Positions 951 to 52,722 of a stretch of DNA of 64,000 nucleotides are shown here, piece after piece (position 1 is the stretch's first letter; each line of letters opens with the position of its first letter). This DNA is from Eledone cirrhosa (Eukaryota): contig OZ024742.1 of assembly GCA_964016885.1 (NCBI GenBank), forward strand, positions 82,274,001 to 82,338,000, given 5' to 3'. A program made the translations under genes and the position numbers. A model generated the notes under the pieces. It searched no databases and had not been told where the DNA came from. It saw only the letters and a program-made list of their open reading frames with translations.

Positions 951-981
<31 letters not shown>

Positions 982-1141
982 AATTGGAATAAATGCTCTG
1001 AAATAGCGATACATATGTGAATATAGACATAGAATATTCGAAAATATTCTGTATGTTTATAATAAACATTTTGAAGACCTAATCGCTATAGAATAGAATA
1101 CGTCACGTATTACAATTAGATTCTCGATAAAAGCAAGGGAA

Positions 1142-1184
1142 GTAATCTACGCGTTTCATTCTCGTTAGAAATCATCAGGACTAC
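1142..1184 (-). ncRNA. Minimal type I hammerhead ribozyme (also at 1452-1494, 1762-1804, 2072-2114)
   Basis: Exact reverse complement of the motif at 2259-2301. Confidence 0.93.
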
Positions 1185-2258
1185 ATATCCAGTGCTTTTA
1201 TCGAGAATGACACAGCTAGAGACTTATAGAATACTTAGCTGTGTACAGGAACTGGTTTGAAAGAGCGGTTGCCGGTCCGGCAGAAATTAGAAATTGGAAT
1301 AAATGCTCTGAAATAGCGATACATATGTGAATATAGACATAGAATATTCGAAAATATTCTGTATGTTTATAATAAACATTTTGAAGACCTAATCGCTATA
1401 GAATAGAATACGTCACGTATTACAATTAGATTCTCGATAAAAGCAAGGGAAGTAATCTACGCGTTTCATTCTCGTTAGAAATCATCAGGACTACATATCC
1501 AGTGCTTTTATCGAGAATGACACAGCTAGAGACTTATAGAATACTTAGCTGTGTACAGGAACTGGTTTGAAAGAGCGGTTGCCGGTCCGGCAGAAATTAG
1601 AAATTGGAATAAATGCTCTGAAATAGCGATACATATGTGAATATAGACATAGAATATTCGAAAATATTCTGTATGTTTATAATAAACATTTTGAAGACCT
1701 AATCGCTATAGAATAGAATACGTCACGTATTACAATTAGATTCTCGATAAAAGCAAGGGAAGTAATCTACGCGTTTCATTCTCGTTAGAAATCATCAGGA
1801 CTACATATCCAGTGCTTTTATCGAGAATGACACAGCTAGAGACTTATAGAATACTTAGCTGTGTACAGGAACTGGTTTGAAAGAGCGGTTGCCGGTCCGG
1901 CAGAAATTAGAAATTGGAATAAATGCTCTGAAATAGCGATACATATGTGAATATAGACATAGAATATTCGAAAATATTCTGTATGTTTATAATAAACATT
2001 TTGAAGACCTAATCGCTATAGAATAGAATACGTCACGTATTACAATTAGATTCTCGATAAAAGCAAGGGAAGTAATCTACGCGTTTCATTCTCGTTAGAA
2101 ATCATCAGGACTACATATCCAGTGCTTTTATCGAGAATGACACAGCTAGAGACTTATAGAATACTTAGCTGTGTACAGGAACTGGTTTGAAAGAGCGGTT
2201 GCCGGTAAGTATTCTATAAGTCTCTAGCTGTGTCATTCTCGATAAAAGCACTGGATAT

Positions 2259-2301
2259 GTAGTCCTGATGATTTCTAACGAGAATGAAACGCGTAGATTA
2301 C
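2259..2301 (+). ncRNA. Minimal type I hammerhead ribozyme (also at 2569-2611, 2879-2921, 3189-3231)
   Basis: gtagtc-CTGATGA-t ttct aacg agaa t-GAAA-cgcg-TA-gattac: stem I gtagtc/gattac, stem II ttct/agaa, palindromic CGCG stem III, GUA cleavage triplet. Confidence 0.93.
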
Positions 2302-3363
2302 TTCCCTTGCTTTTATCGAGAATCTAATTGTAATACGTGACGTATTCTATTCTATAGCGATTAGGTCTTCAAAATGTTTATTATAAACATACAGAATATT
2401 TTCGAATATTCTATGTCTATATTCACATATGTATCGCTATTTCAGAGCATTTATTCCAATTTCTAATTTCTGCCGGACCGGCAACCGCTCTTTCAAACCA
2501 GTTCCTGTACACAGCTAAGTATTCTATAAGTCTCTAGCTGTGTCATTCTCGATAAAAGCACTGGATATGTAGTCCTGATGATTTCTAACGAGAATGAAAC
2601 GCGTAGATTACTTCCCTTGCTTTTATCGAGAATCTAATTGTAATACGTGACGTATTCTATTCTATAGCGATTAGGTCTTCAAAATGTTTATTATAAACAT
2701 ACAGAATATTTTCGAATATTCTATGTCTATATTCACATATGTATCGCTATTCCAGAGCATTTATTCCAATTTCTAATTTCTGCCGGACCGGCAACCGCTC
2801 TTTCAAACCAGTTCCTGTACACAGCTAAGTATTCTATAAGTCTCTAGCTGTGTCATTCTCGATAAAAGCACTGGATATGTAGTCCTGATGATTTCTAACG
2901 AGAATGAAACGCGTAGATTACTTCCCTTGCTTTTATCGAGAATCTAATTGTAATACGTGACGTATTCTATTCTATAGCGATTAGGTCTTCAAAATGTTTA
3001 TTATAAACATACAGAATATTTTCGAATATTCTATGTCTATATTCACATATGTATCGCTATTCCAGAGCATTTATTCCAATTTCTAATTTCTGCCGGACCG
3101 GCAACCGCTCTTTCAAACCAGTTCCTGTACACAGCTAAGTATTCTATAAGTCTCTAGCTGTGTCATTCTCGATAAAAGCACTGGATATGTAGTCCTGATG
3201 ATTTCTAACGAGAATGAAACGCGTAGATTACTTCCCTTGCTTTTATCGAGAATCTAATTGTAATACGTGACGTATTCTATTCTATAGCGATTAGGTCTTC
3301 AAAATGTTTATTATAAACATACAGAATATTTTCGAATATTCTATGTCTATATATATATATATA

Positions 3364-6970: not shown

Positions 6971-6984
6971 AATGTATGTTTAAT

Positions 6985-7345
6985 ATATTTGGCAATATTC
7001 CGGCATCGCTGGGCCAGCAATCGCTCTGTATAATCAGATCCTGATTATTACTGGAATTCTATAAGAATCCAGCATTTATAATTTTCGACGGAAGCAGGGG
7101 GTGCTTATAGCTATATATGGATACATACATACATATATATATATACAGGGAGTGCGTGGCTCTGATGATCGCCAACAGCGTGAAACAGACTGTTAACTTC
7201 TCCCCCTTCTTTAGCCGAAAAGAAGTACGTTTCATAGTGACTACTTTAAAGCCGATAGCGTATGGTCTTCTAAATGTTTTTAATTAAAAATACGGTATAT
7301 TGCCAAATATACTATACATATATTCATGTATATATCGCACCAATC
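6985..7345 (+). mobile_element. Diverged solo monomer of the retrozyme-like family A, with degenerate HHR at about 7150-7200
   Basis: Homologous to 48900-49200 (cgctctgtataatcagatcctgattatt...attctataagaat; ggtcttctaaatg..ttaattaa). Core CTGATGA-tcgc caaca gcgt-GAAA-cagactg-TT is present but stem I pairs poorly. Confidence 0.75.
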
Positions 7346-7366
7346 CTAATATGTATATATATATAT

Positions 7367-7626
7367 CACCTTGATCACCTTGTCCGACCAGTCTGTCGAG
7401 CACCAATCGGCGCCGCTGGTAACAGCACGTCGTGCTGTTTTAGCCGTAAGATAACGCCATCCCACTGGCTGGGCGGGCAGGCCGGTACTCATTTATACAG
7501 CTGAGTAAACTGGAGCAACGTAAAATAAAGTGTCTTGCCAAGGAAACAACACATCACCCGGTCCGAGATTTGAACTCACAACCTTTCGGTTGCAAGCCCA
7601 ATGCTCTAACCACTAAGCCATGCGCC
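7367..7626 (-). mobile_element. tRNA-derived SINE family 2
   Basis: Minus strand starts ggcgcaTGGCTTAGTGGttagagc...GAGTTCAAATC (Pol III A and B boxes), followed by a tRNA-unrelated body. Confidence 0.8.
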
Positions 7627-11724: not shown

Positions 11725-11786
<62 letters not shown>

Positions 11787-11855
11787 AGTATGTATGTATA
11801 CGTACATACATATATGTATACAGACGTACAGTAGCATGCACATATATATATATAT

Positions 11856-11915
<60 letters not shown>

Positions 11916-12077
11916 GCATACAGGTACACATACATATATGCACGCATCAGATTAGCCTACGTTTATTATAACGCCGGCCGCTTTGTTCGTTTGTTTGTCA
12001 ACAAAGCGAACAGCCTGAATTTATGCCATACGGTGTTAAGGCAACCACGTCACCTTTTTGTTCAACACTGACACAGG

Positions 12078-12122
12078 AACGATGTACTAGTTTCAAGCTT
12101 GTTAGCTATCATCAGCACCGTT
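12078..12122 (-). ncRNA. Minimal type I hammerhead ribozyme (also at 12607-12651, 13128-13172)
   Basis: Reverse complement of the motif at 13697-13741. Confidence 0.93.
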
Positions 12123-12376
12123 TACCCATCTGCCAGATAGTTGAACGTTCGAAAGTATATACTTTCCTTATGAAAATTAACGGCTGAGCAGCCTAATTTG
12201 CATATTGAGTGAGTTAAATCGGTCAGGCATACCGAAAACGATTAGTTGAAAAAAAATGAAAACGAAATTTCATTTCTCACTCTTAGTATGGCACTTACTT
12301 AAATGTAAGTATGTATGTATACGTACATACATATATGTATACAGACGTACAGTAGCATGCACATATATATATATAT

Positions 12377-12444
<68 letters not shown>

Positions 12445-12905
12445 GCATACAGGTACACATACATATATGCACGCATCAGATTAGCCTACGTTTATTATAA
12501 CGCCGGCCGCTTTGTTCGTTTGTTTGTCAACAAAGCGAACAGCCTGAATTTATGCCATACGGTGTTAAGGCAACCACGTCACCTTTTTGTTCAACACTGA
12601 CACAGGAACGATGTACTAGTTTCAAGCTTGTTAGCTATCATCAGCACCGTTTACCCATCTGCCAGATAGTTGAACGTTCGAAAGTATATACTTTCCTTAT
12701 GAAAATTAACGGCTGAGCAGCCTAATTTGCATATTGAGTGAGTTAAATCGGTCAGGCATACCGAAAACGATTAGTTGAAAAAAAATGAAAACGAAATTTC
12801 ATTTCTCACTCTTAGTATGGCACTTACTTAAATGTAAGTATGTATGTATACGTACATACATATATGTATACAGACGTACAGTAGCATGCACATATATATA
12901 TATAT

Positions 12906-12965
<60 letters not shown>

Positions 12966-13426
12966 GCATACAGGTACACATACATATATGCACGCATCAG
13001 ATTAGCCTACGTTTATTATAACGCCGGCCGCTTTGTTCGTTTGTTTGTCAACAAAGCGAACAGCCTGAATTTATGCCATACGGTGTTAAGGCAACCACGT
13101 CACCTTTTTGTTCAACACTGACACAGGAACGATGTACTAGTTTCAAGCTTGTTAGCTATCATCAGCACCGTTTACCCATCTGCCAGATAGTTGAACGTTC
13201 GAAAGTATATACTTTCCTTATGAAAATTAACGGCTGAGCAGCCTAATTTGCATATTGAGTGAGTTAAATCGGTCAGGCATACCGAAAACGATTAGTTGAA
13301 AAAAAATGAAAACGAAATTTCATTTCTCACTCTTAGTATGGCACTTACTTAAATGTAAGTATGTATGTATACGTACATACATATATGTATACAGACGTAC
13401 AGTAGCATGCACATATATATATATAT

Positions 13427-13484
<58 letters not shown>

Positions 13485-13696
13485 GCATACAGGTACACAT
13501 ACATATATGCACGCATCAGATTAGCCTACGTTTATTATAACGCCGGCCGCTTTGTTCGTTTGTTTGTCAACAAAGCGAACAGCCTGAATTTATGCCATAC
13601 GGTGTTAAGGCAACCACGCAAATTAGGCTGCTCAGCCGTTAATTTTCATAAGGAAAGTATATACTTTCGAACGTTCAACTATCTGGCAGATGGGTA

Positions 13697-13741
13697 AACG
13701 GTGCTGATGATAGCTAACAAGCTTGAAACTAGTACATCGTT
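13697..13741 (+). ncRNA. Minimal type I hammerhead ribozyme (also starting at 14224, 14747, 15246, 15769, 16278)
   Basis: aacggtg-CTGATGA-t agct aaca agct t-GAAA-ctag-TA-catcgtt: 7-bp stem I, 4-bp stem II, palindromic CTAG stem III, GUA site. Confidence 0.93.
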
Positions 13742-13903
13742 CCTGTGTCAGTGTTGAACAAAAAGGTGACGTGGTTGCCTTAACACCGTATGGCATAAAT
13801 TCAGGCTGTTCGCTTTGTTGACAAACAAACGAACAAAGCGGCCGGCGTTATAATAAACGTAGGCTAATCTGATGCGTGCATATATGTATGTGTACCTGTA
13901 TGC

Positions 13904-13969
<66 letters not shown>

Positions 13970-14142
13970 ATATATATATATATGTGCATGCTACTGTACG
14001 TCTGTATACATATATGTATGTACGTATACATACATACTTACATTTAAGTAAGTGCCACACTAAGAGTGAGAAATGAAATTTCGTTTTCATTTTTTTTCAA
14101 CTAATCGTTTTCGGTATGCCTGACCGATTTAACTCACTCAAT

Positions 14143-14195
14143 ATGCAAATTAGGCTGCTCAGCCGTTAATTTTCATAAGGAAAGTATATACTTTC
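14143..14195 (+). promoter_or_regulatory. Octamer ATGCAAAT plus PSE-like motif upstream of the HHR in each B1 unit (candidate internal snRNA-type promoter)
   Basis: atATGCAAATtaggctgcTCAGCCGTTAATTTTcataagGAAAGT. The octamer and aattttcata are conserved in the diverged B2 unit. Function is inferred. Confidence 0.4.
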
Positions 14196-14430
14196 GAACG
14201 TTCAACTATCTGGCAGATGGGTAAACGGTGCTGATGATAGCTAACAAGCTTGAAACTAGTACATCGTTCCTGTGTCAGTGTTGAACAAAAAGGTGACGTG
14301 GTTGCCTTAACACCGTATGGCATAAATTCAGGCTGTTCGCTTTGTTGACAAACAAACGAACAAAGCGGCCGGCGTTATAATAAACGTAGGCTAATCTGAT
14401 GCGTGCATATATGTATGTGTACCTGTATGC

Positions 14431-14492
<62 letters not shown>

Positions 14493-14959
14493 ATATATAT
14501 ATATATGTGCATGCTACTGTACGTCTGTATACATATATGTATGTACGTATACATACATACTTACATTTAAGTAAGTGCCATACTAAGAGTGAGAAATGAA
14601 ATTTCGTTTTCATTTTTTTTCAACTAATCGTTTTCGGTATGCCTGACCGATTTAACTCACTCAATATGCAAATTAGGCTGCTCAGCCGTTAATTTTCATA
14701 AGGAAAGTATATACTTTCGAACGTTCAACTATCTGGCAGATGGGTAAACGGTGCTGATGATAGCTAACAAGCTTGAAACTAGTACATCGTTCCTGTGTCA
14801 GTGTTGAACAAAAAGGTGACGTGGTTGCCTTAACACCGTATGGCATAAATTCAGGCTGTTCGCTTTGTTGACAAACAAACGAACAAAGCGGCCGGCGTTA
14901 TAATAAACGTAGGCTAATCTGATGCGTGCATATATGTATGTGTACCTGTATGCATATGT

Positions 14960-14991
<32 letters not shown>

Positions 14992-15452
14992 ATATATATA
15001 TATATGTGCATGCTACTGTACGTCTGTATACATATATGTATGTACGTATACATACATACTTACATTTAAGTAAGTGCCATACTAAGAGTGAGAAATGAAA
15101 TTTCGTTTTCATTTTTTTTCAACTAATCGTTTTCGGTATGCCTGACCGATTTAACTCACTCAATATGCAAATTAGGCTGCTCAGCCGTTAATTTTCATAA
15201 GGAAAGTATATACTTTCGAACGTTCAACTATCTGGCAGATGGGTAAACGGTGCTGATGATAGCTAACAAGCTTGAAACTAGTACATCGTTCCTGTGTCAG
15301 TGTTGAACAAAAAGGTGACGTGGTTGCCTTAACACCGTATGGCATAAATTCAGGCTGTTCGCTTTGTTGACAAACAAACGAACAAAGCGGCCGGCGTTAT
15401 AATAAACGTAGGCTAATCTGATGCGTGCATATATGTATGTGTACCTGTATGC

Positions 15453-15514
<62 letters not shown>

Positions 15515-15975
15515 ATATATATATATATGTGCATGCTACTGTACGTCTGTATACATATATGTATGTACGTATACATACATACTTACATTTAAGTAAGTGC
15601 CATACTAAGAGTGAGAAATGAAATTTCGTTTTCATTCTTTTTCAACTAATCGTTTTCGGTATGCCTGACCGATTTAACTCACTCAATATGCAAATTAGGC
15701 TGCTCAGCCGTTAATTTTCATAAGGAAAGTATATACTTTCGAACGTTCAACTATCTGGCAGATGGGTAAACGGTGCTGATGATAGCTAACAAGCTTGAAA
15801 CTAGTACATCGTTCCTGTGTCAGTGTTGAACAAAAAGGTGACGTGGTTGCCTTAACACCGTATGGCATAAATTCAGGCTGTTCGCTTTGTTGACAAACAA
15901 ACGAACAAAGCGGCCGGCGTTATAATAAACGTAGGCTAATCTGATGCGTGCATATATGTATGTGTACCTGTATGC

Positions 15976-16023
<48 letters not shown>

Positions 16024-16484
16024 ATATATATATATATGTGCATGCTACTGTACGTCTGTATACATATATGTATGTACGTATACATACATACTTACATTTA
16101 AGTAAGTGCCATACTAAGAGTGAGAAATGAAATTTCGTTTTCATTTTTTTTCAACTAATCGTTTTCGGTATGCCTGACCGATTTAACTCACTCAATATGC
16201 AAATTAGGCTGCTCAGCCGTTAATTTTCATAAGGAAAGTATATACTTTCGAACGTTCAACTATCTGGCAGATGGGTAAACGGTGCTGATGATAGCTAACA
16301 AGCTTGAAACTAGTACATCGTTCCTGTGTCAGTGTTGAACAAAAAGGTGACGTGGTTGCCTTAACACCGTATGGCATAAATTCAGGCTGTTCGCTTTGTT
16401 GACAAACAAACGAACAAAGCGGCCGGCGTTATAATAAACGTAGGCTAATCTGATGCGTGCATATATGTATGTGTACCTGTATGC

Positions 16485-16546
<62 letters not shown>

Positions 16547-16678
16547 ATATATATATATATGTGCATGCTACTGTACGTCTGTATACATATATGTATGTAC
16601 GTATACATACATACTTACATTTAAGTAAGTGCCATACTAAGAGTGAGAAATGAAATTTCGTTTTCATTTTTTTTCAAC

Positions 16679-16757
<79 letters not shown>

Positions 16758-25978: not shown

Positions 25979-28302
25979 CTGTATATACTTATATACCCTT
26001 ACATGTATATATTTTAAACAACGGAACTTTTTTTATCCCAACCTCCTTAATGAAATCGGAATAATGAATTAGGACTTCATTAATTATTAATGCAATGTAT
26101 TAAAAAATAGTGTTGGATAACTTTTAATGAATGATGGAATATCGGAATCAATGCAACACGCAATTCTATATTGTTTTTAGATCTGTTACAGGGATCGATA
26201 AAAATATATACTTACTAAACGTAAATAATGTAAAGGAGAATCATACATTCAATGGTTCTAATTTAATAAGAACACAAAACACTGCGACTGTTATACCATC
26301 TATGAATACGAGGATACATAAACGCTTGGAATTATGCCGTCTGAAAAGCCATCCTATAAATGCGGTATTATGTATGTTGCACAGCAATATCTAAATCGTT
26401 ATTAATTTTGTTTCTAAATTACTCCTTAATATCTGAAATTAAAGAAATTGCTGTGTGCTATGTTGAACAAGTTACATTACTGAAGCCATGGTAGTGATAT
26501 ATAGTCTGTACTTATTTTTGTACTTCTACTCATTAACTGTGCGTAGTTATTCATTCGCCGATAGCATTATCTGTAGAATCAGTAGTGTGTCAACTCCTGC
26601 ATAATCAACTTTTCCTTTTATCTTTCCGAATATGATAGAAAATATATGAGTTGCCCAGGGACTTTAGTTGAAGCTTGCATCTGTAGTAGAAACGGCAGGC
26701 ACTATCGACGGGTATATTTCGTAAAAGTATATTCTAGGGATAAGCATATTATACATTGATTGGGGCATGATGTGGCTGATAAAGTTAGTGAGTTGTAGAT
26801 CTATATCCCCGAAACACAGAACGATACATCCCGGAAGAAATATCACAAGATACACATTTCGACACTACAAATTGCACCAGTCTGTGCTCTGGGCAGATGT
26901 ATTTTTTATTGACAAAGAATGGGTGAAATACACAATTCGTTTCGTCATAATTTTAATATCAATGCAAGTTCGGCACCTGATACTATAGACATATTTTGCC
27001 GAATAGTGTTCGATAATAACAACAATAACCGCAGTATTTAATTACTCTCCTGACAGGTTGTTTTAAGCGTTGTATTAAGATAATCAATTATATATTATCC
27101 TGCCAATATACCTTATATTATTTTGTTTATATAATATACGATATTACATTATATTCATAAAGTATTATGTTATCGACGTACTTTATATATATTTAAGCTT
27201 ATCGATATTCAGTGTATTATTGCTCGTAGGATTTCATTTATTAATTTTTCATCAGTACACACAATAAACTGAAGTAGATTGCTATATCAATTAGTATACT
27301 GTTTTTCTTTCAGAAGAGGCCGCCATTATGATTCAATCAGTAATGTTGGTGCGTGATCATTGTAAAAGCACTTAACTATTTATAAAGCCGCTCAATGTTG
27401 CTGTCAGCAGATATCAAGATGAAATACTCCTATAACTGACAGGTGTTTTTATAGATAACCTGTCTGAATCTCAGAAACATTATAAAACAATGCCGCTTTA
27501 TACTAGCATTCTTATCTAGCGAGATAGCGAATATAGGAAATAAAGACACATCTTATACATAGAGAGTGAGGGAGATATATATTTATATAGATCGATAGAT
27601 AGAGAGAGAGACATATCATATGTATCTGCATGTCTTTATAAGTACATATGTATATATATATGAGAAAGTGAGTTTTTTTTTTACAAAATGAAAAATGACC
27701 GAGGTGTCCTACACGAGTGAAAGTATAAAGGAAAAAAGAAGAAATAGAAAATGCAACTGGAGTCTTATTTTAGAAAAAAATATATATATTTATTTGGTTC
27801 CTTGAAGCGGCGGCCTACCGCATGCTGTCTTCTTCAACCAGCCCTTGTAAGTACATGTTATGTTTTATACTATGTTTCTAGATTTACAGTTAATATGTGG
27901 GCTAAGTTTATATTGTTATACTTTGGGAGGGACATGTTGCCAATAAGAAACACACGCACCAGCTGCTTTCAGTCCAATTTATTATAAATTAAATTATAAA
28001 TTTAAAAATTTATAAATTTCCGGTTGTTTGGTTGGTTCCACAACCGGACGGTTCTTCATATATTGTCAAAGTTCTTTCGTCACACATTATGTGACCTCTT
28101 CAGTGACTGGGATTATTTTCTTTGTTTAGTGCCTCTCCTTGGTTCTGTCCTACGCCATCTTGTTTTTCTGTATGTTGTGTGCTTAGTTTGCGCATGTGTT
28201 ACATCGGGGTGTCTGTGTGTGTTTTTATTTGATTATATATTTGTTTATTTACATGTTCCTGGTTGGTTGTTTGTTCTATGTGTGTGTGTTTTCATTTTGT
28301 CC

Positions 28303-30197
28303 TTAATTGTAAGTTGTGATGTTGTTATTCCATTCATGTTTTCTATTTAATTTTGGTTGGAGTTCATTTATGATTATTGCCTCTGTCATTTGTCTAAACA
28401 TTGCGTCTTTTCTGTGTGTAGATTTTATTTTTATTTCTATGTTCTCTAATTTGCCCTTATGTTCTATTTTAGTATGTTGGTGGAGTGCTATTGACTTGTT
28501 TGCATCTTGAAGCTCACGCCAGTGTTCATTTAATCGCTCTCCTCTACTACGAACTGTCTCACCTATGTACACTATATTCTTATCTTTACATTGTCCGTCA
28601 GTACATATTATGCTTTATACTATGTTTATAGATTTACAGTTAATATGTGGGCTAAGTTTACAGATTATGCATTTCTTATCTATACAGGGAGGTCTTTGAA
28701 AAGGGTATGTATTATTAATAAGTGTTTTTATGGAGGTACTTGTTCTTTGTACAATGTTAATATTTAGTTTAAGTTTATATAGAGCCCTTCTAAATTTGTA
28801 AGCTAGTTCACCTATAGGGGTTGTATTGATGAACATTACACTCTGGTATGTATTGCTATCATACCATGAGTTTATTCTATTAACCTTATTCCTAGTTCTT
28901 TCTATTCTATTCCAAAATGTTCTCCTATACAAGGGGCAGGTCCCATTTGTATCATTGTTTACCATTTTTTCCCATTTGGTTCTGGCTCGTCTATATACTC
29001 TGATTTTATCTCTCTGATTGTAATCAGAGAACTGCATACGGTAGATGAAGTGTTGTATGTGTCTCTCTAGTTCTTTGGGGTTACACATGCGGGACACGTT
29101 TCTCATCACCCGTACCAAATCCGCAATCAGTATGTTGAATTTTGTGTGATCTGAAACAGCTGAGTTTCGGTGGATCAGATATTTGGAAATCATGGGTTGG
29201 CATAATGGGAATGGAGGATTTGTTTTTTGTTATTAATGGTTTTTAAAGAGAGCTCTGTGTCTAGTACAGGTAATCTATGGTTGGGGTGTTTGCTTGGGTA
29301 GTCTATAGTAACACTAATACTCTGGTGGATGGAGTTAGCAATTTGCTGGATGCTTTCCATGGTATTTTTCTCTAATTCCTGACTGTTCTCTAGTGAGGGT
29401 GTTTTTACTACGATGTTTATATCATCAACGCAACGAGAGTACATTATCAGGGTTAAGAGGTTGTTGTCTTCTAATTGTTCTTTAAGTTTATTGTCCCACC
29501 ATACCATGAATAGGGTAGCTATGTCACCTGCAATGCTAACATCAATGGCTGCTCCCTCCTCTTGGGCATATGTTATTCCATTAAATTTGAACATATGTTC
29601 CTTAAGGTTTAGTTTTATGCTGGCCCCCACCGCATGTGCAATAATTTTCTTTAGTTCATCGTGGTTTTCGGGGTTCCGTATGACTCTGTTCCACCCGTTC
29701 CATCTTTCTGTGTTGGTTTTCTGGGCCATTGAGGTAATGGTAGAAGGTCTTGCTCTTGCTGGCCTTGTGCGGCATAGGTTGCTAAGGTCACACGTATCTA
29801 GATAATCATTACTATAAGTAAGTTTAAGTAGGAGTCCCAGCTCACTGGTATCAATCCTACGGAATCCAACATTGCTGTCACTGATCATTTCTACGCATTT
29901 CTCCACAGCAAATTCCACGTCAATGGATGGATATAGGGACACAACATCCATACTACCTATTATACTGTCTGTTAGGTTCCTAGATCGGTTATTTTCGCTG
30001 ATTCTGCTGAGGAGGTCCTCCGTGCTGTCACATATATCCGGGGACATTTCAATGATGGAGCGTATTATCAGGGAGAGGAAGTAGGAAAGTCTGTAGTTAC
30101 AAGCAATGTTAGCTACACAGACTGGCCGTGTTGGTGGTCCTGTGACTGGGTCACTGTTGGTCTTATGGTCTTTTCGAGCGCAATACAACGCTGGCAC
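28303..30197 (-). pseudogene. PLE polyprotein (RT + GIY-YIG endonuclease), frameshifted
   Basis: GSMDVVSLYPSID, QEEGAAIDVSIA, YSRCVDDIN, LPVLD; Cys linker CIDKKCIIC; YIGETVRS..ERLNEH...EAIII..QPKLN. Confidence 0.9.
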
Positions 30198-30516
30198 GTC
30201 ATTGTTCCAGGGCTGGAAGTTGTTAGCACTCCGTTTATAATAAACGGACTGCCAACAACTTCCAGGCCTGGAACAATGACGCGCCAGCGTTGTATGGGCT
30301 GGAAGTTGTTGGCAGTCCGTTGTTGGCAGGCTGGGAAATTATTGGCAGTCCGTTTATTAATAAACAGACTGCCAACAACTTCCAGGCCTAAACAAATAAA
30401 AACACACACAGACTAAGCACACAGCACACAGAAATACTAAGCACACAACACACAGAAAAACAAGATGGCGTAGGACAGAACAGAGCAGAGTCACAAAACA
30501 AAGAAAATAATCCCCA

Positions 30517-30559
30517 GTCACTGAAGAGGTCACATACTGTGTGACGAAAGTACTTTGAC
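30517..30559 (+). ncRNA. pLTR type I hammerhead ribozyme (partner copy on - at 28065-28107)
   Basis: gtca-CTGAAGA-g gtcacat act gtgtgac-GAAA-gtac-TT-tgac. Confidence 0.8.
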
Positions 30560-30887
30560 ACTATATGAACAACCGTCCGGTTGTGGAACCAACCAACCAA
30601 CCAGAAATTCATAAATGTTTAAATTTATAATTTAATTTATAATAAATTGGAGTGAAAGCAAATGGTACGTGTGTTTGTTATTGACAACATGACCCTCCCA
30701 AATTATAACAACATCGGTGTCAACACACGTTTTAAGATAAAGAATCTTGTTAAACAAATTCAGAAACGAAATATATATATATATATACATATGTGCATGT
30801 CCGTGTGTGTGAGTATATGCGAGTGAGTGTGTGATTGTGTGAATATTTGTCTAAAGATTTAGAACTATATATACATAAATATATATG

Positions 30888-40591: not shown

Positions 40592-41674
<1,083 letters not shown>

Positions 41675-41680
<6 letters not shown>

Positions 41681-42014
41681 ACAGGGAGAAAGAGACGATT
41701 ATTAGGAAGAAAAATATATTTTTTTCATTTGTTGCTTCTCTCTTTTTTCTGGGTTAGAAAATGATTAAAAAGAAATGTTTTACTTTGTGTGAAGTGTTAA
41801 GGTATTCGTTGATTTATTTATTATTTAACAATGACATTTATTTATCTATGTCTATATTTAATAATTCTCTATTACCGGTTTCACCATTTTTATGCTTATC
41901 AAATGATAGTGAAATGTATTAGTGTGGTGTCACATGTTAAACAGAAGGTGCAGAAAGAATAATATTATTTACAAACAAGGTTTATGAAGTGAAAAGAAAA
42001 AAGAAAAAGGAAAA

Positions 42015-42350: not shown

Positions 42351-42935
42351 ATACATATGTGTGTTTGATTTTTCCAGGGGGGGGGGGGGCACGCTGTGTC
42401 CTTAATCCAATATATTTGGAATTTTATTTACGTATGTTTATTCTCTAGATACGTCTGAAGTACATAGAAAATCGAAAAGAAAAACACAAATATTTTTCCA
42501 TATTGAAAATTGCAGGCTAAGAGCTATTTTGGGTTCTTATTAAACAATGCTGCTGCCGGGTATGTACACAATTAGAGCCAACGAATTAAAATACTTTATA
42601 GCTGGAGGAAACAAATTAATTGCTATTGGAACATGAAAGTGGATATATCGAGGTAGGAAATGAAGGAAGCAAATGTAACTAAAATCAATGCTTCTTGTAG
42701 AAAATGTTTGTTACATGTATAAAAGTGTAAAAAGAAAATATATACACACAATTATGTAGATAGATATGTACGCACACACACACACATACATACATACAAA
42801 CATGCATGCATATATATATATTAATAAAAGGAATTGAAACTTTGTCTGATTTACGAGTTTTATTTACGATCCTTTAAAATTATAATTATTTTATAATGAA
42901 ATAGTATTGTAGAATATTAACTGTTAAATGTTAAT

Positions 42936-42974
42936 TGAACAAGTACTTTCATGCTTTCGCAATCATCAGGTTCA
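42936..42974 (-). ncRNA. pLTR type I hammerhead ribozyme (partner on + at about 48086-48123; partly deleted copy at about 43910)
   Basis: tgaac-CTGATGA-t tgc gaaa gca t-GAAA-gtac-TT-gttca. Confidence 0.88.
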
Positions 42975-43299
42975 GATTCAATGGTGACAGTCAAGTTTGC
43001 AATTTTCAACTGAAATGAGATGGGTAAAATCTGTACCTTATATACATTAAAAAGCGGCTACAGAATGCTAGGTTTTGCAGACTGTATTTCGACCAATCGG
43101 TGTGTAGTTTAACTAGATTACCAAAGCTGATTGGTTTAGGCGTAACGGTTGGTTGAGTACGTCTAACGACTCCTATTTGACCCTATCTAAAGCATCAATT
43201 GTTTGGCTATTTTTAGAAATGATGAAAATAGTATATTCTAGGATTTTTATAAAAAAATCTTCAGTAATGATCAACATCCACATCATTTTTATTATTATT

Positions 43300-43332
<33 letters not shown>

Positions 43333-44100
43333 AGTGGTGGCAGTCTGCATAGTCATAGGCGTAGTCACAGTGGAAGTAATACCCCTAAGCATTATTATTG
43401 TTCATTTAGAATTTATCAATATAATTCTTTTCTTTAATTTTTCTCTTGATTTCACTTGGGCTGTGTAATTTGTAGAATGGAAATATTATAAATATTTTCT
43501 GACCACATGTTTCTAGATGGTTACTCAGGGGTATCTGACGGACATTTGAGTCTCTGATTTGCTGTCGGTACACCGGTACACGTTCCGATTGTGCATTTCC
43601 AGTTTGACCGACATATAGTTCTTCACAAACCGGGGATTTAATGCAGTAAATTAGATTTCTGCTTTTGCAGTTCATATTTGCATTTGGGAATATTTTTGCA
43701 GTTTTTGTGTTCATATATTGACCAGTATGTATGAACTGACATGTGTAACATCGACTATTTGGTAATCAGGTGAAACTACACACCGATTGGTCGAAATACA
43801 GTCTTCAAAGGCTAGCATTCTGTAGCCTCTTTTTACTGTATATAAGACACAGATTTTACCCATCTCATTACAGTTGAAAATTGCAAACTTGACTGTCACC
43901 ACTGAATATGAACCTGAAGATTGCGACTACTTTTTCAATTAACATTTAACAGTTAATATTCTACCATACTATTTCATTATAATATCATTATAATTTTAAA
44001 GGATTGTAAATAAAAAGAGTAAATCAGACAAAGTTGGAATTCCTTTTATTAATATAATCTTCTATACACACTCATACACACCCGTGTATATTTATTTATA

Positions 44101-44153
<53 letters not shown>

Positions 44154-44172
44154 CTATTTTGTATATGCAAAC

Positions 44173-47100
44173 ATGTCTGGAAAGCAATAAATGAAATCAA
44201 CAGAATCAGAAAGAATTCTAAAGGAGATATCATGGAAATTATCAACACTTTTCAAGATGACTGGCACGCCATCCTCTATGTTAAAGGAAATAGAAAAACA
44301 ATCTACAGGCGGAAAACTTATAACTGAACATATAAACTCTGAAATTAAACATTTAGCTGAAAATTATACCAACTGTTATTAAAGATACAAGAGAAAGCCT
44401 ACCACAACCCTCTTGCATGTCAGAACTAAACGAAAGAAATTTGGAAAAAGAAACTCATCGAATAAGAAAAGAAATGTGGAAAACATGGAAAACATTTCTT
44501 AACATAAGAAAACAAAACTTCTGGAAAGCATACAAATGCGAAAAATATGTCGTAACACATTCGAAATGGCTCTCTCTAACGGCACCCATACTACCTCGCA
44601 AATACTTAATTAAAGAAATTGCAGGAGAACCAGAAGAAAAACAAAACTCTGTTGGGAACTTACATTGACAAAATTCAGAACCGACATCTCCATTACTCAA
44701 TGTAAACAATCCCGCTACAAAGCCAAATACGAAGCTATTGATGACCAAATTGAAGTCGAAATTTCGAAGCTAACGACAGGTAATAAAGCTGAAACATTAC
44801 GAGAACTATGGATCAGAGATTTCTCAAAAGAAGAAAGCAAATCAAGAAAGTTATGACAACAGAAACAATTATTTCTCGACGAAAATGCTGCAAATTACGG
44901 TAAAGACTCTCGAACTCTGAAAAAAAAGCATTAAAAGTGGACAATCTTGCCAACACAACATACGTCAGAACACGAGGCAACACAAACACTCACCTCACAT
45001 TGAATCAAAGAAGAACTACGGTAAGAACTCTTCGCTTTTTCTACAAAAACACCCTAAGGCACACAACATGAATAAAAAGCACAAACACGATAGATATTCC
45101 TTTGACCAGACCATGAGAAGTAGAAAAAACAGGAGATCATTCTCTATATCTCAACAGAGACTACCCACAAGAAACAGGGAAAAAACCCGTAGAATAACCA
45201 GTTCGCTCTCAAGATCTCAACAGAGATTACCCACAAGAAACTGGGCGAAAAAAACGATGTAAACCAGAAAGCAAACCTAGGTGATTTTCCCAGATTGTTA
45301 AAAATAATGTTAACAAGAAATGGAAAAATAATATACATAATACCAAAAATAGGACAAACAACATAACGAAACTAAGCATAATATCACGACCAAAAGTTCA
45401 TCAAGCAAACACCAACAGAGAAAAATCCAATTTGTATCGTCAGGGCAACAAAAACCGGAAAAAAGAAAAACTCCAGGAGGAAACATACCCAAAAAAACTG
45501 AACACGTAGATCATAAAATAATTAATTTATCCAAAAGAGATATTGACAATGATGAAATGCAAACTCTGTCAAAAGGACTGAAATTTACACCGACTCCAAC
45601 AGTCAACTAGCAAGAACTAATGTAGGATACCCAAGAATTCTGTCGTAAATTATGACTTGTAGAATTCTTCGCTGATAAAATAATGAGAGTGATGAATCAC
45701 TAGTAAAGAACAAATCAAATTTCACTCCGCCAAAAGGAAGAAATATCTATCTCTACCAATACATTGATATCCTGTCTCAATTTCCTCTAAGACGTAATAT
45801 TAATGTTAGGCCAAACATTAACCAATCGGAAGGGTCTACACTTAAACGTACACAAAATGATAAACAAGCAGATAAAGGGGGTGCAATTGTTATAATGGAT
45901 GCTGAATGCTACAAAAATTTGGTTGAGGAACAACTGAAAGACACAACATTCTACCATGAAATACAGTCAAATATAGACCACAACATCATGAAGAAGAACA
46001 ACAACCTGGCTTCAAAATACTACAACTAACTTACTGATAAGGAAAGAGATTATATCACCAATTTTGAGCCAAAACCCAGCAACCTGTATGGCCTACCAAA
46101 CATTCATAAGACAAAGGAAATCCAACTGGCAGTCAAAGAACAAAAAGGGGAGTACATTAAATTACTACACCCAAAAGACTTAACACTTAGATCTATTATA
46201 GCTAGTACAACATGCCCTTCCTACCGTCTAAGCAATTTTGTTGAGACTATTTTGAAACCACATACCCAGTTTTATCCGGGATGATATCGACTTCCTGTCC
46301 CATTTTCCCAAAACCACGGAAAGGAATTCACTTCTACATAGCTTTGATGTGGTAAGCCTTTACACCAACATTACACATGATTTAGAAATAAAGGCGGTGA
46401 AATACTGGGAGGAAAAACATAGAGAAGTGATTCCCACCACATTCACAGCGCCATTTATATTAGACGCACTCAGACTTATTGTGGAAAACAACACTTGTTT
46501 CTTAAATGGAAAGAATTACATTCAAATGAGAGGCACAGCGATGGGAACCAAGTTTTCTCCCATTTACGCGAACTCTGTAATGGGATACTTAGAACAACAA
46601 CTCTAACAAGAAATAGAGGAAAAATATAGCAGTGAATTTAGAAAGTGAATTGAAAAGTCTTGGAAGAGATACATTGACGTCTATTTCATCATGTGGGCAC
46701 AATCTCTAGATACTCTGGATGAGTTCAACATCCCCCTGAATAACCTCCATCAATCTCTCCAATTTACAAAAGAGATGAATAGTACAAACTACCATTCCTA
46801 GATATGATGGTAATCAAAAATGACACCACCATTACCCCGGATATACACTATAAACACACAGCCACCCATCAATATGTGAATTTTAAGTTGTGCCATCCAC
46901 CTGATACAAAACGCAACATCCCATACTGCCTAGCCAGAAGAATGTATACCATTGTAGAAGATACGAATACCAGAAACAAACGCCTAACAGAAATGAGACA
47001 AATTTTGCACAATCAAAAATACCCATCTCTACTTATATTAACAGCGGGCTATAAAAATACCTATACAACAACTTAGGACAACCCAAGGAAGAAGAAACCA

Positions 47101-47676
47101 AGAACTGGTCATACCATTCATAATGACACAGCCCATGTCACCAGAATATCTTCAGCACTGCCAAAGCAAACCTACCGACCATTTCTCAAAGTTAATAATT
47201 AAAAGGTTTAATCACAGACCGATCTTTGACTCATAGTATAAGACGGCTGAAAAAGTTTAAGCAATTACTAACAAATGCAAGGTTTGACCTCAAAAACAAA
47301 GACCAATCATTCACTGTATTTCACTGTATCTAAATGCAATGATAGTTGATGTGGCACATGTCAGTTCATACATACTGGTCAATATATGAACACAAAAACT
47401 GGAAAAATATTCCCAAATGCAAATATGAACTGCAAAAGCAGAAACCTAATATATGTCGGTCAAACTGGAAATCCACTATCGGAACGTGCATGGGTGCAAC
47501 GACAGCAAATCAGAGACCCAAATGTCCGTCAGATACCCCTGAATAAGCATCTAGCAACATGTGGTCAGAAAATATTTATAATATTTCCATTCTACAAATT
47601 ACACAGCCCAAGTGAAGTCAAGAGAAATAATAAAGAAAAGAATTTTATTGATAAATTCCAACCGAAACTAAATTAA
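44173..47676 (+). pseudogene. PLE polyprotein (RT + C-terminal GIY-YIG), multiple stops and frameshifts
   Basis: IINLSK...LSKGLKFTPTP, KQADKGGAIVIMD, LYGLPNIHK, SFDVVSLYTNI, GTAMGTKFSPIYAN, WKRYIDVY, LPFLD, NCKSRNLIY(...)YVGQTG..ER...QQI, FIDKFQPKLN. Confidence 0.92.
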
Positions 47677-48472
47677 AAATAATAATGCTTAGGTTATTAC
47701 TTCCACTATGACTACGCCTACGACTATGCAGACTACCACCACTAACAACAACAACAACAATAATAATAATACAAGTGATGTGGATGTTAATGATTACTGA
47801 AGATTGTTTATAAAAACCATAGAAAATACTATTTTCATCATTTCTATAAATAGCAAGACAATTGATACTTTGGATAGGGTCAAATAGGAGTCGTTAGACG
47901 TACTCAACCAACCGTGACGCCTAAACCAATCAGCTTTGGTAATCTAGTTAAACTACACACCGATTGGTCGAAATACAGTCTACAAAATCTAGCATTCAGT
48001 AGCCCCTTTTTACTGTATATAAGGCACAGATTTTACCCATCTCATTTCAGGTGAAAATTGCAAACTTGACTGTCACCATTGAATATGACCTGAAGATTGC
48101 GAAAGCATGAAAGTACTTGTTGAATTAACATTTAACAGTTAATATTCTACCATACTATTTCATTAAAGGATTGTAAATAAAACGAGTAAATCAGACAAAG
48201 TTTGAATTCCTTTTATTACTATAATCTTCTATACACAATGATACATACCCGTGTATATTTAATCATATATATAAATAAAGTATCGAGTATATGTTGGTTG
48301 TATAGCAACACCTCAGTATGCAGATTGGAGCACTCGACGAAATGCGCAGATTGGTTACTCCGGAGTAATGTAAAATAAACTAAAATAAATAGGTCAAATA
48401 TTTAAAATAAACGAAGCCAAATTTAAAATATTTGTCTTATTTATTTTAGTTTATTTTATATATATATATATA

Positions 48473-49218
48473 AATATATATGGATGTAAATATAATGTAT
48501 TTTGCAATACAGTTTATGCTTAATTAAAAGCATTTTGAAGACCGTAAGCTATTGTTTTAAAGTAGTGACAAATTCACTCACTTCGATCTCAGCAAACAGG
48601 AGGAGATAAGCCGACATGACATGTTTCGCTTTTGTTGAAGCTTATCAGGGCCAACTACCCCGCCCGTCTGCTGAGATCAATGATGTTATATTCTTATAGA
48701 AATCTAGTAAATAATCAGGAGCTGATTATGCAGAGCGGTTGTTGGTCAGGCAGAAATTAAAAATTAGAATTGTAGCTCTGAAATAGCAATATATATATGG
48801 ATGTAAATATAATGTATTTTGCAATACATTTAATTAAGCATAAAGTGTATTGCAAAATACATTATATTTACATCCATATATATATTGCTATTTCAGAGCT
48901 ACAATTCTAATTTTTAATTTCTGCCTGACCAACAACCGCTCTGCATAATCAGCTCCTGATTATTTACTATAAGAATATAACATCATTGATCTCAGCAGAC
49001 GGGCGGGGTAGTTGGCCTTGATAAGCTTCAACAAAAGCGAAACATGTCATGTCGGCTTATCTCCTCCTGTTTGCTGAGATCGAAGTGAGTGAATTTGTCA
49101 CTACTTTAAAACAATAGCTTGCGGTCTTCAAAATGCTTTTAATTAAGCATAAAGTGTATTGCAAAATACATTATATTTACATCCATATATATATTGCTAT
49201 TTCAGAGCTACAATTCTA

Positions 49219-49220
<2 letters not shown>
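48473..49220. mobile_element. Retrozyme-like array A2: about 317-bp unit, about 1.1 copies plus about 1.25 inverted copies, inside (TA)n
   Basis: Unit restarts at 48481 and 48798, with a strand switch at about 48829. Homologous to A1 (agagcggttg..ggtc.ggcagaaatta.aaatt.gaat...gctctgaaatagc). Confidence 0.88.
49010..49057 (+). ncRNA. Type I hammerhead, U3-A8 core variant (partner on - at 48609-48656 has C3/A8)
   Basis: agttggc c-TTGATAA-gctt caacaa aagc-GAAA-catg-TC-at gtcggct. Confidence 0.72.
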
Positions 49221-49499: not shown

Positions 49500-50619
49500 G
49501 TATGTGAGAAAGAGACGATTATTAGGAAGAAAAACTTTTTTTTTCCTTTTTTGTTTCTCTCTCTCTTTTTTCTGGGTTAGAAAATGATTAAAACGAAATG
49601 TTTACTTCGTATGAAGTGTTAAGGTTTAGTTGATTTATTTATTATTTAACAATGGCATTTATTTATCTGTTTATATATTAAATTATTTTCTATTTCCGAT
49701 TTCATCATTTGTATGCATTATCAAATGATAGTGAACTGTATTAGTGTGGTGTCGCACATGTTAAACAGAAGGTGCAGAAAGATTAATGCTATTTACAAAC
49801 AAGATTTATGAAGTGAAAAGAAAAAGGTGAAAAAACGTGCATAATGTAAAACATAAAAAGTCAATGCGGAAGAAAAAATAATGTTATTTACAAGCCAAAT
49901 CATTGAAGTTAAGCAGATCAAAATGTGTTAATATAGCAAGAGTGCCTTGTTGATCCATGATTCCGTGATGGAGGCCAATGGTGGACTGAGGCTTGATATG
50001 ATTTCCCTTTTTAGAGAGTTACTATGCAGGGGGAAGCAATTCTTGCTGGATGATATTTAATTTATTTAAGAAAAAGGATTAGGTAGGGTGTGAGGGAGGT
50101 AACTCTTGTAATTATTTGATTGTTTGTTGCAGTTTTAGATTGGTCCGATTTTTAGAGCATTAAGTAGGGGTTGAAATGTATTAATGAAATATGTTTTCTT
50201 ATTGGTTCGTTGGATGAAAGTAGCGTTGTCTATGAATTTGTAAAACGCTGTCCTTGTTTAAAATGGAATGTTGAACCTTCTATTAGATTTATGCATATGC
50301 CAGAGTTGGGCCTTCCGAATTTTGTTACTGTAGGGTTCATTATGAGGGTTTGTTGGATTTTGGCTTGTGTGAGGGTGTATTTTATGGATTTGGGTTGTCT
50401 TTTGCTCTTTATGTTGTTGTGTGTTTGAAGGATTTTGTTCATTCGTGGGTCTCTTTTTAGTAAAGGAATGTTCTGGAGGATGGTGTCGAATGCCTCATTG
50501 TTGAGGGGGTTGTGTGTGGAGATGTATGGTATGGTTTTTTGGTGGGAGGTGGTTGAGCATGTCAAGGTCGTCCCTTTTGAAGCTTTTTATATGGTTTAGG
50601 AAAGATTTAAGCAGAATAT

Positions 50620-52065
50620 CTAGGAAGTTGCTCAATAACGAACATACAACAACACTCAATAACGAACATACCCTACTAGTAACCTTTCATGTCATCAATT
50701 TATATTCCAATATCCCACACAACCTAGGTATAGAGGCAATGCAATTCTGGATGGAAAATTTCCCTAGTGAACTCCCACAACTCATCCCTAAAGAATTTGT
50801 GTTGGAGGGACTCAAATTCATCTTGGAAAACAATTACTTCGAATTCAATGCCAAATACTACAGACAGAAATGTGGGACTGCCATGGGCACGAAAGTGGCC
50901 CACTCATACGCCAACCTAGTCATGGGATATTTGGAAACCATTCTCTACCGCAAAGTTCTAGAGGAATACGGCAACCACTTCTACCAACACATATAAAAGA
51001 ACTGCAAGAGATATCTGGACGAATGCTTCATCCTCTGGCATGAAAGTATAGATAGACAGTTTGAGTTTAAAACCCTTTCTGAATCGACTCAACACAAACT
51101 TACAATTCACAATGGATTAGAGCCATGAACAACTCCCTTTCCCCGACATCCTAATCAAGAAAACAAGCAACAAAATAGAATCAGACATATACTACAAACC
51201 CACGGACTCCAACCAATACCTTCATTCAACTCGTGCCATCCTAGACACACCAAAATGGCAATTCGTTATAATCTAGCCAGAAGGATCTGCACAATAGTTT
51301 CAGATAAACACACATGCTACATACGAATAGAAGAATTAAAAAGACACTTATCAGCAGAACATACCCACCATCCCTAATCACCAATGTAATCCAACGTGCC
51401 CTAAAACTATACAACCAGGAACTCAGACACCCCAAACCCAGGAATGAACCGCAAAGAAAACTCTACCATACATCTCCACACACAACCCCCTCAATGAGGC
51501 ATTCGACACCATCCTCCAGAACATTCCTTTACTAAAAAGAGACCCAAGAATGAACAAAATCCTCCAAACAAACGACATCATAAAGAGCAAAATCCAACCC
51601 AAATCCGTAAAAAAACATCCTCACACAAGCCAAAATACAACAAACCCTCACAATGAACCCTACAGTAACAAAATGCGGAAGGACCAACTGTGGCATATGC
51701 ATAAATATAATAGAAGGTTCAACATTCCATTTTAAACAAGGACAGCGTTTCACAGTTAATCACAACTTTACATGTGCATCTGAAAACTTTATCTATGTTT
51801 TGACCTGCTCAGGTTGTCAAGAGCACTACATAGGACAGACAAAAGACAACCTACGTCAACGAGTTACCGTCCATAAATCACAAATTAAAATAGAGTAATA
51901 CAGTAAGATTGCATTTAGTGAACATATCGCCAATTGTGCTCCAAATCAACATCCAAACTTAAAAATTTTCCCCATTTACAAATTCATACACAGCGCTACT
52001 TTCATCCAACGAACCAATAAGTAAACATATTTCATTAATAAATGTCAACCCCTACTTAATGCTGT
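50620..52065 (+). pseudogene. PLE RT + GIY-YIG, disrupted
   Basis: LVTFHVINLYSNIPH, GTAMGTKVAHSYANL, RYLDEC, DIYYKPTDS; KCGRTNCGIC linker; FTCASENFIYVLTCSGCQEHYIGQT..LRQRVTVH. Confidence 0.92.
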
Positions 52066-52477: not shown

Positions 52478-52527
52478 TTCACTATCATTTGATAATGCAT
52501 AAAAATGCTGAAACCGGTAATAGACAA
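52478..52527 (+). ncRNA. pLTR hammerhead-like motif, U3-A8 variant
   Basis: ttcactat cat-TTGATAA-t gcat aaaa atgc t-GAAA-ccgg-TA-atagacaa. The stem I junction is non-canonical. Confidence 0.6.
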
Positions 52528-52722
52528 TAATTAGATATATAAATAGATAAATAAATGCCATTGTTAAATAATAAATAAATCACTAATACCTTAATACTGC
52601 ACACAAAGTAAAGTAAAACATTTCGTTTTAATCATTTTCTAACCCAGGAAAAAGAGAGAGAGAAAGAAGAAAGGAAAACAAATATTTTTCTTCCTAATAA
52701 TCGTCTCTTTCTCCCTGTTTTC

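What the first reader, a model, noticed from the sequence alone, without database searches (positions are those of the whole stretch)
14116..14230. Conserved upstream module shared by otherwise unrelated retrozyme families A and B
Seen: B1 TGCCTGACCgatttAACtcaCTCaataTGCAAATtag.ctgct...aattttcATAAG, A2 TGCCTGACCaacAACcgCTCTGCATAATcagctcct...atttctATAAG, A1 TGCCGGACCggcAACcgCTC...attctATAAG, B2 ATGCAAATtagtctgc...aattttcATAG. ATAAG lies 44 nt (A1, A2) or 51 nt (B1) upstream of the catalytic core, while the rest of the units do not align. Inference: a selected cis-element (promoter or RT-recognition signal) of common ancestry.
Basis: partly seen in the sequence, partly recalled or inferred. Interest (0 to 1): 0.72.

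Follow-up and report, generated by a model that had tools for sequence, protein, structure and literature searches.

The report
Shared copy-start signal in ribozyme repeats
Two lineages of small self-cutting-RNA repeats in this animal genome share a roughly 70-base stretch that begins right where their DNA copies start, so it is probably the signal that a Penelope-type jumping gene's copying enzyme recognises, with possible promoter motifs in its second half.

Summary
The module is real but faint. The window holds seven type I hammerhead (retrozyme) insertions in two lineages, A and B/C. Unanchored A-versus-B similarity is marginal (12 to 439 of 1000 shuffles reach it), and TGCCTGACC is not invariant.

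In A1, A2, A4, B1 and B2 one arm ends, against (TA)n in four of them, 6-13 nt before the motif. The other, inverted arm ends about 30-75 nt earlier. This is the Penelope 'tail', which marks two reverse-transcriptase start sites. Aligned from that end, all four A×B pairs find their best register within -1 to +6 nt (summed score 0 of 3000 shuffles). The end lies in a U-rich loop closed by a GAG/CTC helix in A1, A2, B1 and B2.

Best reading (0.55): an RNA start/anchor signal for a Penelope-like enzyme. It is followed by an octamer and TATA-like half that may be a promoter, as in newt satellite 2. No RNA data or biochemistry were available. 'The rest does not align' is partly wrong.

The parts
14043..14103 (+). 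B1 'tail': the stretch between the short start site (unit position of the end at ~11782) and the long start site (unit position of the end at 16679-16680); holds a hairpin at 14071-14092
   Evidence: End mapping; hairpin pair probability 0.95
14064..14070 (+). 5' strand (GAGTGAG) of helix P1, which closes the loop holding the long start site
   Evidence: pair probabilities 0.82-1.0
14093..14110 (+). U-rich, largely unpaired linker holding the long reverse-transcription start site (~14101-14103)
   Evidence: in run X1, 29 contigs leave the unit here into (TA)n (loose end at 14086)
14111..14127 (+). Small hairpin P2 with the TGCCTGACC motif (14117-14125); consensus over families about YGYYNRRCC
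   Evidence: a hairpin also forms in A1 and B2, not in A2/A3
14133..14139 (+).
14142..14177 (+). Inverted repeat P3: octamer ATGCAAAT (14143-14150) facing a degenerate inverted copy (14169-14176); RNA hairpin or paired POU-type DNA sites
   Evidence: 11 pairs, no double change between B1 and B2; no variant at 5% or more in the octamer in X1
14175..14190 (+). ATAAG and TATA-like TATATA (14185-14190); candidate core promoter
   Evidence: function inferred only
14199..14290 (+). Type I hammerhead of B1: extended stem I, core 14231-14255, palindromic stem III, predicted cut after 14261
11782..16680 (.). B1 insertion: ~3.5 units on - and ~5.9 units on +, diverging from a junction at 13618; unit ~500-530 nt; both ends in (TA)n
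981..3352 (.). A1 insertion: 310-nt unit, ~4 (-) and ~3.7 (+) copies, junction 2206; long end 981, short end 3352; module e.g. 2772-2840
48474..49220 (.). A2 insertion: two divergent arms, 309-nt unit; long end 49220, short end ~48474; cores CUGAUAA and UUGAUAA
30964..31243 (-). A3: decayed sub-monomer of the A2 type with a broken core; short 3' end; 5' end beside the long site
6971..7345 (.).
40689..41636 (.). B2 insertion: 466-nt unit, ~1.9 copies on - (long end 40689) and a short inverted arm (short end ~41636); core reads AAAA for GAAA
53569..54017 (+).
42817..48258 (.). Decayed autonomous Penelope-like element with hammerhead, inverted arm, ~40-nt tail, and TATATAAG 74 nt before the core; comparison only, not shown to be the partner

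Best explanation
The module is the stretch of retrozyme RNA just 3' of the site where a Penelope-like (PLE) reverse transcriptase starts copying, and it helps place the enzyme there.

Step 1 (inferred): units are transcribed, cut by their hammerheads and probably circularised. Step 2 (inferred from literature): a PLE protein binds the RNA and cuts a (TA)n target on both strands. Step 3 (shown as a DNA pattern): each cut strand primes at one of two fixed RNA sites. The 'long' site is a U-rich loop 6-13 nt before the YGYYNRRCC motif, closed by a GAG/CTC helix; the 'short' site is about 30-75 nt upstream. Step 4 (pattern shown, cause inferred): both cDNAs run on for up to about six units, often stop on re-entering the module, and join with 1-3 nt of overlap, giving divergent arms.

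The module itself is not copied first, so it can act as the enzyme's anchor. Its 3' half (octamer hairpin, ATAAG, TATA-like box) may also be the unit's Pol II promoter; I put that extra role at about 0.4.
For: One long and one short end in 5 of 5 two-armed insertions (A1, A2, B1, B2; A4). A1, A2+ and B2 ends were walked by script; the others were read from the printed flanks.

Chance that one of two ends falls 5-15 nt before the motif in B1: 0.046. In run X1, 29 contigs run into (TA)n at the same place.

An A×B alignment anchored on these ends is significant, and the best register coincides with the anchor in 4 of 4 pairs.

A GAG-containing helix of 5 bp or more spans the long end in 4 of 4 complete units; shuffles give this in 18-51 of 2000. 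In the inner register A and B differ by three double changes that keep pairing. RNAalifold finds this helix as the only A1/A2 consensus structure.

6 of 10 5' ends fall in the module against 1.97 expected, P=0.005. None falls at the hammerhead cut.

In the anole PLE, reverse transcription starts at two internal sites that bound the tail, and the minimal RNA (to +172) extends past the start at +111-118 (PMC11167929). The decayed PLE in this window has the same ~40-nt tail.
Against: No binding, priming or RNA data.

A4 ends at the long site although it lacks the 5' strand of P1; the gap may be later than the insertion. A3 and C could not be tested for P1, and I saw no such helix in C by eye.

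The P1 register is ambiguous. By sequence, A's CGCTCT aligns with B2's second CTC, not with the paired one, so the three double changes may not be true covariation. Some helix of 5 bp or more spans the end in 1595-1936 of 2000 shuffles, and the GAG criterion was chosen afterwards.

P2 is absent in A2/A3 and P3 in A1. RNAalifold on six P3 regions gave no pairs. The anchored 3' half alone is not significant (478 of 3000).

There are only two independent lineages, and windows and scoring were set after seeing the data. A T>C change in two adjacent A1 copies does not fit copying of one circle without a later event.
Confidence: 0.55

Rival explanations
1. The module is only an internal Pol II promoter (octamer plus TATA-like box, possibly snRNA-type as in newt satellite 2). 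It starts a transcript near the base of hammerhead stem I; the nearby insertion ends are set by the tail alone.
For: Exact ATGCAAAT at -88, -100 and -93 in B1, B2 and C, against 5 background octamers in 57.6 kb. P3 arms are identical in B1 and B2 with no double change. No octamer variant at 5% or more in X1. C carries three tandem octamer-like repeats. TATA-like boxes at -46 to -59 in 5 of 6 units scanned; A3 lacks one. The window's PLE has TATATAAG and CCAAT boxes before its hammerhead. Newt satellite 2 has an snRNA-type Pol II promoter (PMC2220036 passage citing Coats 1994; the octamer detail is recalled, the paper was not held).
Against: No exact octamer in any A copy, and none at all in the young A1 array. 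The A-B similarity is stronger in the 5' half (39 of 3000) than in the 3' half (478 of 3000). It does not explain why ends and 5' truncations cluster at the module. A's TATAAG aligns with B's CATAAG, not with B's TATA-like box.
Confidence: 0.2
2. A and B descend from one ancestral retrozyme or PLE terminal repeat, and the module is an unselected or weakly selected remnant. Ends fall nearby only because the U-rich linker pairs easily with a cut (TA)n end.
For: A-B identity is low and profile searches do not cross. Other parts, notably the A1 versus B hammerhead, also align. The ends show 0-2 nt of overlap with (TA)n, more at A2's short end. Animal retrozymes are reported to derive from PLE terminal repeats (bioRxiv 10.64898/2026.07.22.740005). 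In X1 the module has about the same variant density (4 in 74 nt) as the downstream part (7 in 110 nt).
Against: Within A and within B the module is the best-scoring region (72 and 63 against at most 44 and 39 elsewhere). About two thirds of each unit is A/T, and B1 holds a long internal (TA)n that is not used as an end. The tail next to the module does not align between A and B (1952 of 3000).
Confidence: 0.2
3. The A-B resemblance is chance in AT-rich sequence.
For: Two of four unanchored pairs are no better than shuffles; no cross-profile hit.
Against: Anchored sum 0 of 3000, and best register at the anchor in 4 of 4 pairs. Independent coincidence with the insertion ends.
Confidence: 0.05

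Closest known systems
Metazoan non-LTR retrozymes (Cervera and de la Pena 2020, PMC7229834: parts 2-3 of 6, Discussion and passages read; Li et al. 2026, bioRxiv 10.64898/2026.07.22.740005: parts 1-3 of 5 read)
   Same: Short non-coding AT-rich tandem units, each with a type I hammerhead. A1 and B1 have the one-pair stem III with palindromic loop, and the U-U pair at the base of stem II described for axolotl motifs. PLEs occur in the same genome.
   Different: No cis-element or insertion end is described in the parts read. A review states that these repeats seem to have no promoter and no conserved motif pointing to the partner element (PMC7761336 passages). Here fixed ends and a shared module are seen.
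Penelope-like element insertions and the anole Poseidon reverse transcriptase (Frangieh et al. 2024, PMC11167929: parts 1-2 of 4 read; Craig et al. 2021, PMC8557442: passages)
   Same: Inverted 5'-truncated arm, a tail at one end only, AT-rich or (TA)n targets, and two internal start sites.
   Different: Non-coding multimers. Tails are about 30-40 nt in A but 60-74 nt in B. The start lies in a U-rich loop, not an AC-rich stem-loop. One long plus one short end per insertion in 5 of 5 cases, whereas the anole enzyme showed no strand difference in vitro. The partner protein is unknown.
Newt satellite 2 promoter (Coats et al. 1994; seen only as cited in PMC2220036; details recalled)
   Same: A hammerhead tandem repeat with an internal promoter; octamer element (recalled).
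   Different: The octamer here is 30-40 nt from a TATA-like box and is present only in B/C. No proximal sequence element could be tested and no transcript was mapped.

Membership tests
Non-LTR retrozyme | Short tandem non-coding units of a few hundred bp | tested here: met
   Units 309-523 nt; ORFs over them are low-complexity microsatellite frames
Non-LTR retrozyme | Type I hammerhead in every unit | tested here: met
   Intact cores in all 8 A1 and 9 B1 copies and in C; 15 of 24 consensus pairs show double changes. A2, A3, A4 and B2 have altered cores or stems. Rfam at gathering score did not detect them.
Non-LTR retrozyme | Self-cleavage and circular RNA in vivo | not testable with these tools
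   Needs RNA data or bench work
PLE-type insertion | Inverted 5'-truncated arm next to the main arm | tested here: met
   A1, A2, A4, B1, B2; not seen in A3 or C
PLE-type insertion | 30-40-bp tail at one end only | tested here: met
   A1 40 nt, A2 28-36 nt; B1 60 nt and B2 74 nt are longer than the published range
PLE-type insertion | Mobilised by an identified PLE RT/GIY-YIG protein | not testable with these tools
   Decayed PLE fragments are present (RVT_1 below its cut-off, GIY-YIG above it). Retrozyme queries hit none of them by blastn.
snRNA-type promoter of newt satellite 2 | Octamer ATGCAAAT upstream of the hammerhead | tested here: inconclusive
   Present in B1, B2 and C; absent as an exact match in A1, A2 and A3
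snRNA-type promoter of newt satellite 2 | Proximal sequence element matching the host's snRNA genes; Pol II start site | not testable with these tools
   No host genome is held and no transcript data were available

The most novel reading that the evidence does not exclude
The module is a conserved template domain of a retrozyme circle, built somewhat like telomerase RNA (recalled analogy): an unpaired start site in a loop closed by a long-range helix. A dimeric PLE protein would prime both cut target strands on one circle, one at each of two sites, and roll in both arms. The unit would be a minimal fusion of this anchor to a PLE promoter and a hammerhead. That would be a first defined enzyme-recognition signal for animal retrozymes.
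Probability: 0.3. Interest if true: 0.78.

Novelty: new variant of a known kind. Interest (0 to 1): 0.56.

Why it matters
How animal retrozymes are transcribed, and which enzyme copies them, are stated open questions (PMC7761336; preprint Discussion). Fixed start sites with a one-sided tail tie these repeats to PLE machinery by mechanism, not just by co-occurrence. A 70-nt shared module next to the start gives a small target for an in vitro assay that already exists for an anole PLE. If the 3' half is a promoter, the newt case would extend to an invertebrate. The elements themselves are of a known kind, and the A-B signal is faint.

Tried and rejected
No whole genome is held.

Sequencing runs: no RNA holder listed; 6 rows. 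Four were laid; only X1 was informative (4681 contigs; the others 1, 1 and 2). Contigs show no expression.

Search for relatives with octamer + hammerhead patterns:
- Viral contigs: 1 match (looked coding), then 108 and 65 matches. These were not scored as hammerheads, only included in the blast.
- Genome contigs: 61 matches, 1 of 61 passed a loose hammerhead filter.
43 of 108 rows passed, as minimal PLE-type hammerheads in about 20 clusters, one holding 19 rows. None of the 340 loci matched A, B or C beyond low-complexity or short weak hits. The pattern selected for the octamer, so these rows say nothing about enrichment and were dropped.

Rejected: 'short start sites sit in hairpin loops'. 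True in 3 of 4, but 19-36% of A/T positions do as well. A common P3 structure over six units was not found by RNAalifold. The X1 variants at 14171/14173 shift one mismatch in P3 and give another octamer-like word, so they do not separate RNA from DNA roles. Core-like matches at 27255(-) and 53017(-) were not accepted as family members.

Literature: searches listed no paper describing start sites or this module in retrozymes; the library lacks most subscription journals. PMC48510, PMC308520 and PMC5785218 were not held. The supplement of PMC7229834 (retrozyme sequences) was unreadable, the supplement search of PMC11167929 gave no hits, and bioRxiv supplements are closed. These may bear on novelty and on whether other animals carry the module.

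Full report
Setting. The window is 28-44% GC in 2-kb bins and full of microsatellites. It holds a tRNA-like repeat and several decayed Penelope-like elements (PLEs). It is animal DNA; a cephalopod is my guess from recalled genome style, and no call shows this. No whole genome is held.

Families. A scan for hammerhead cores with stem I and stem III pairing and blastn within the window gave seven insertions: A1 (310-nt unit), A2 (309), A3, A4, B1 (~520), B2 (466) and C. A4 and C were not in the finding. All are type I hammerheads; an alignment of five shows double changes in 15 of 24 predicted pairs. A1 and B1 have intact cores with a palindromic four-base loop III, the form reported to cut as dimers (PMC4209133 passages; PMC7229834). 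A2, A3, A4 and B2 have altered cores or stems.

Checking the observation. Motifs and the 44/44/51 spacings are correct. Within lineages the module is the best-conserved region (A1-A2 score 72, B1-B2 63, B1-C 41; each 0 of 1000 shuffles). Across lineages it is borderline (12, 12, 187 and 439 of 1000), and profiles of one lineage do not find the other. TGCCTGACC varies (A4, B2, and a variant in run X1). The units do align elsewhere within lineages. A1's hammerhead resembles B's more than A2's, though core letters were not masked.

Insertion ends. Five insertions have two arms that diverge from a junction with 1-3 nt of overlap (read by eye for A1, B1, B2). In RNA sense, one arm ends 8 (A1, 981), 10 (A2, 49220), 13 (B1, 16680) or 6 (B2, 40689) nt before the first base of the motif; A4 ends at A2's position. 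The other arm ends 40, 28-36, 60 or 74 nt earlier, and A4's short inverted arm fits the same pattern. In run X1, 29 contigs leave the B unit for (TA)n at about 14101; X1 may be the source species, so this shows only that the end recurs in the family. A one-sided 30-40-bp tail, inverted arms and (TA)n targets are PLE hallmarks (PMC8557442 passages). In the anole PLE the tail is the stretch between two internal start sites of reverse transcription, and the enzyme needs RNA beyond the start (PMC11167929). The decayed PLE at 42817-48258 shows a ~40-nt tail with an AC-rich stem-loop.

Anchored test. With the long end as anchor, global A×B alignments of -15..+75 gave 68, 0, 84 and 208 of 3000 shuffles, sum 0 of 3000. 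The stretch upstream gave 1952 of 3000. Over all circular offsets of the B units the best register was +1, -1, +6 and +4 nt from the anchor. The signal is mostly in the first 40 nt (39 of 3000) and not in the last 35 (478 of 3000). Caveats: the scoring was chosen, and the four pairs are not independent.

Structure. A GAG-containing helix arises in 18-51 of 2000 shuffles, any helix of 5 bp or more in most. Three A-versus-B double changes appear in one register, but sequence alignment suggests another register. A4 lacks the 5' strand. The B1, B2 and C regions fold well (z -3.7, -6.6, -5.0), A1 less (-2.2) and A2 not (-1.1). The octamer inverted repeat is identical in both arms between B1 and B2, is present in altered form in A2-A4, and is lost in A1.

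5' ends. Six of ten fall between the long site and ATAAG (expected 1.97, P=0.005; window set afterwards; five of the ten read by eye) and none at the hammerhead cut. All 8 A1 and 9 B1 copies are identical over 205 nt around the core, in both arms, while the B family in X1 is polymorphic at 23 of 386 sites. This fits repeated copying of one circle with stalling on re-entry to the bound module. An uncut multimer from a uniform array is not excluded, and one change shared by two adjacent A1 copies argues for caution.

Promoter half. B1, B2 and C carry ATGCAAAT at -88, -100 and -93, and C has three tandem octamer-like repeats. TATA-like boxes lie at -46 to -59 in five of six units, and the window's PLE has TATATAAG at -74 with CCAAT boxes. 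Newt satellite 2 uses an internal snRNA-type Pol II promoter (I saw only the citing passage). A lacks the exact octamer and no transcript could be mapped, so this stays a candidate.

Comparison. The elements are non-LTR retrozymes by every feature I could test. Their insertions are PLE-type. A review says metazoan retrozymes seem to lack promoters and show no conserved motif pointing to their partner (PMC7761336 passages). The 2026 preprint derives them from PLE terminal repeats and, in the parts read, describes no cis-element. Eight library searches listed no description of such start sites; unreadable supplements may bear on this. Pattern scans of three public collections gave no relatives.

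Verdict. A real, weakly conserved module, best read as the RNA start/anchor signal for a PLE enzyme (0.55), with a possible promoter in its 3' half. New variant of a known kind; interest 0.56.

Noticed in passing
window 49506-49698, 41686-41877, 52515-52713: A ~195-nt repeat (88% identical copies) lies next to the (TA)n beyond A2 and B2 and at a third site; the retrozymes may land in the microsatellite of another repeat.
   Followed up: no
window 48648(-) and 49018(+): The two A2 arms differ at hammerhead position 3: C with A8 in one arm, U with A8 in the other, which restores the 3-8 pair. One arm also lacks 8 nt inside the module.
   Followed up: partly
window 2575-2915 versus 14231-14300 and 48648(-): A1 has an A-type backbone but a B-like hammerhead, suggesting exchange of ribozyme modules between lineages (core letters not masked).
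   Followed up: partly
window 53695-53793 and 53890-53902: Family C's second 33-nt repeat shares a 12-nt word with the sequence at its own hammerhead cut, so it could compete with stem I. B1's TATGC-CTGACCGAT resembles that repeat with four bases missing.
   Followed up: no
window 27850-30714, 42817-48258, 50239-51754, 63266-63772: Four decayed PLE-like fragments, three with inverted arms; the two tested matches were RVT_1 (weak) and GIY-YIG. A broken LINE-type RT lies at 59316-60449(-).
   Followed up: partly
window 7563-7620 (-): tRNA-like match (32 bits), probably a SINE head.
   Followed up: no
B1 array 11782-16680: The internal (TA)n differs in length between otherwise near-identical copies (22-52 nt): slippage in copying, afterwards, or in assembly.
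   Followed up: no
L175-L279: Many metagenome contigs hold AT-rich, apparently host-derived minimal PLE-type hammerheads.
   Followed up: partly
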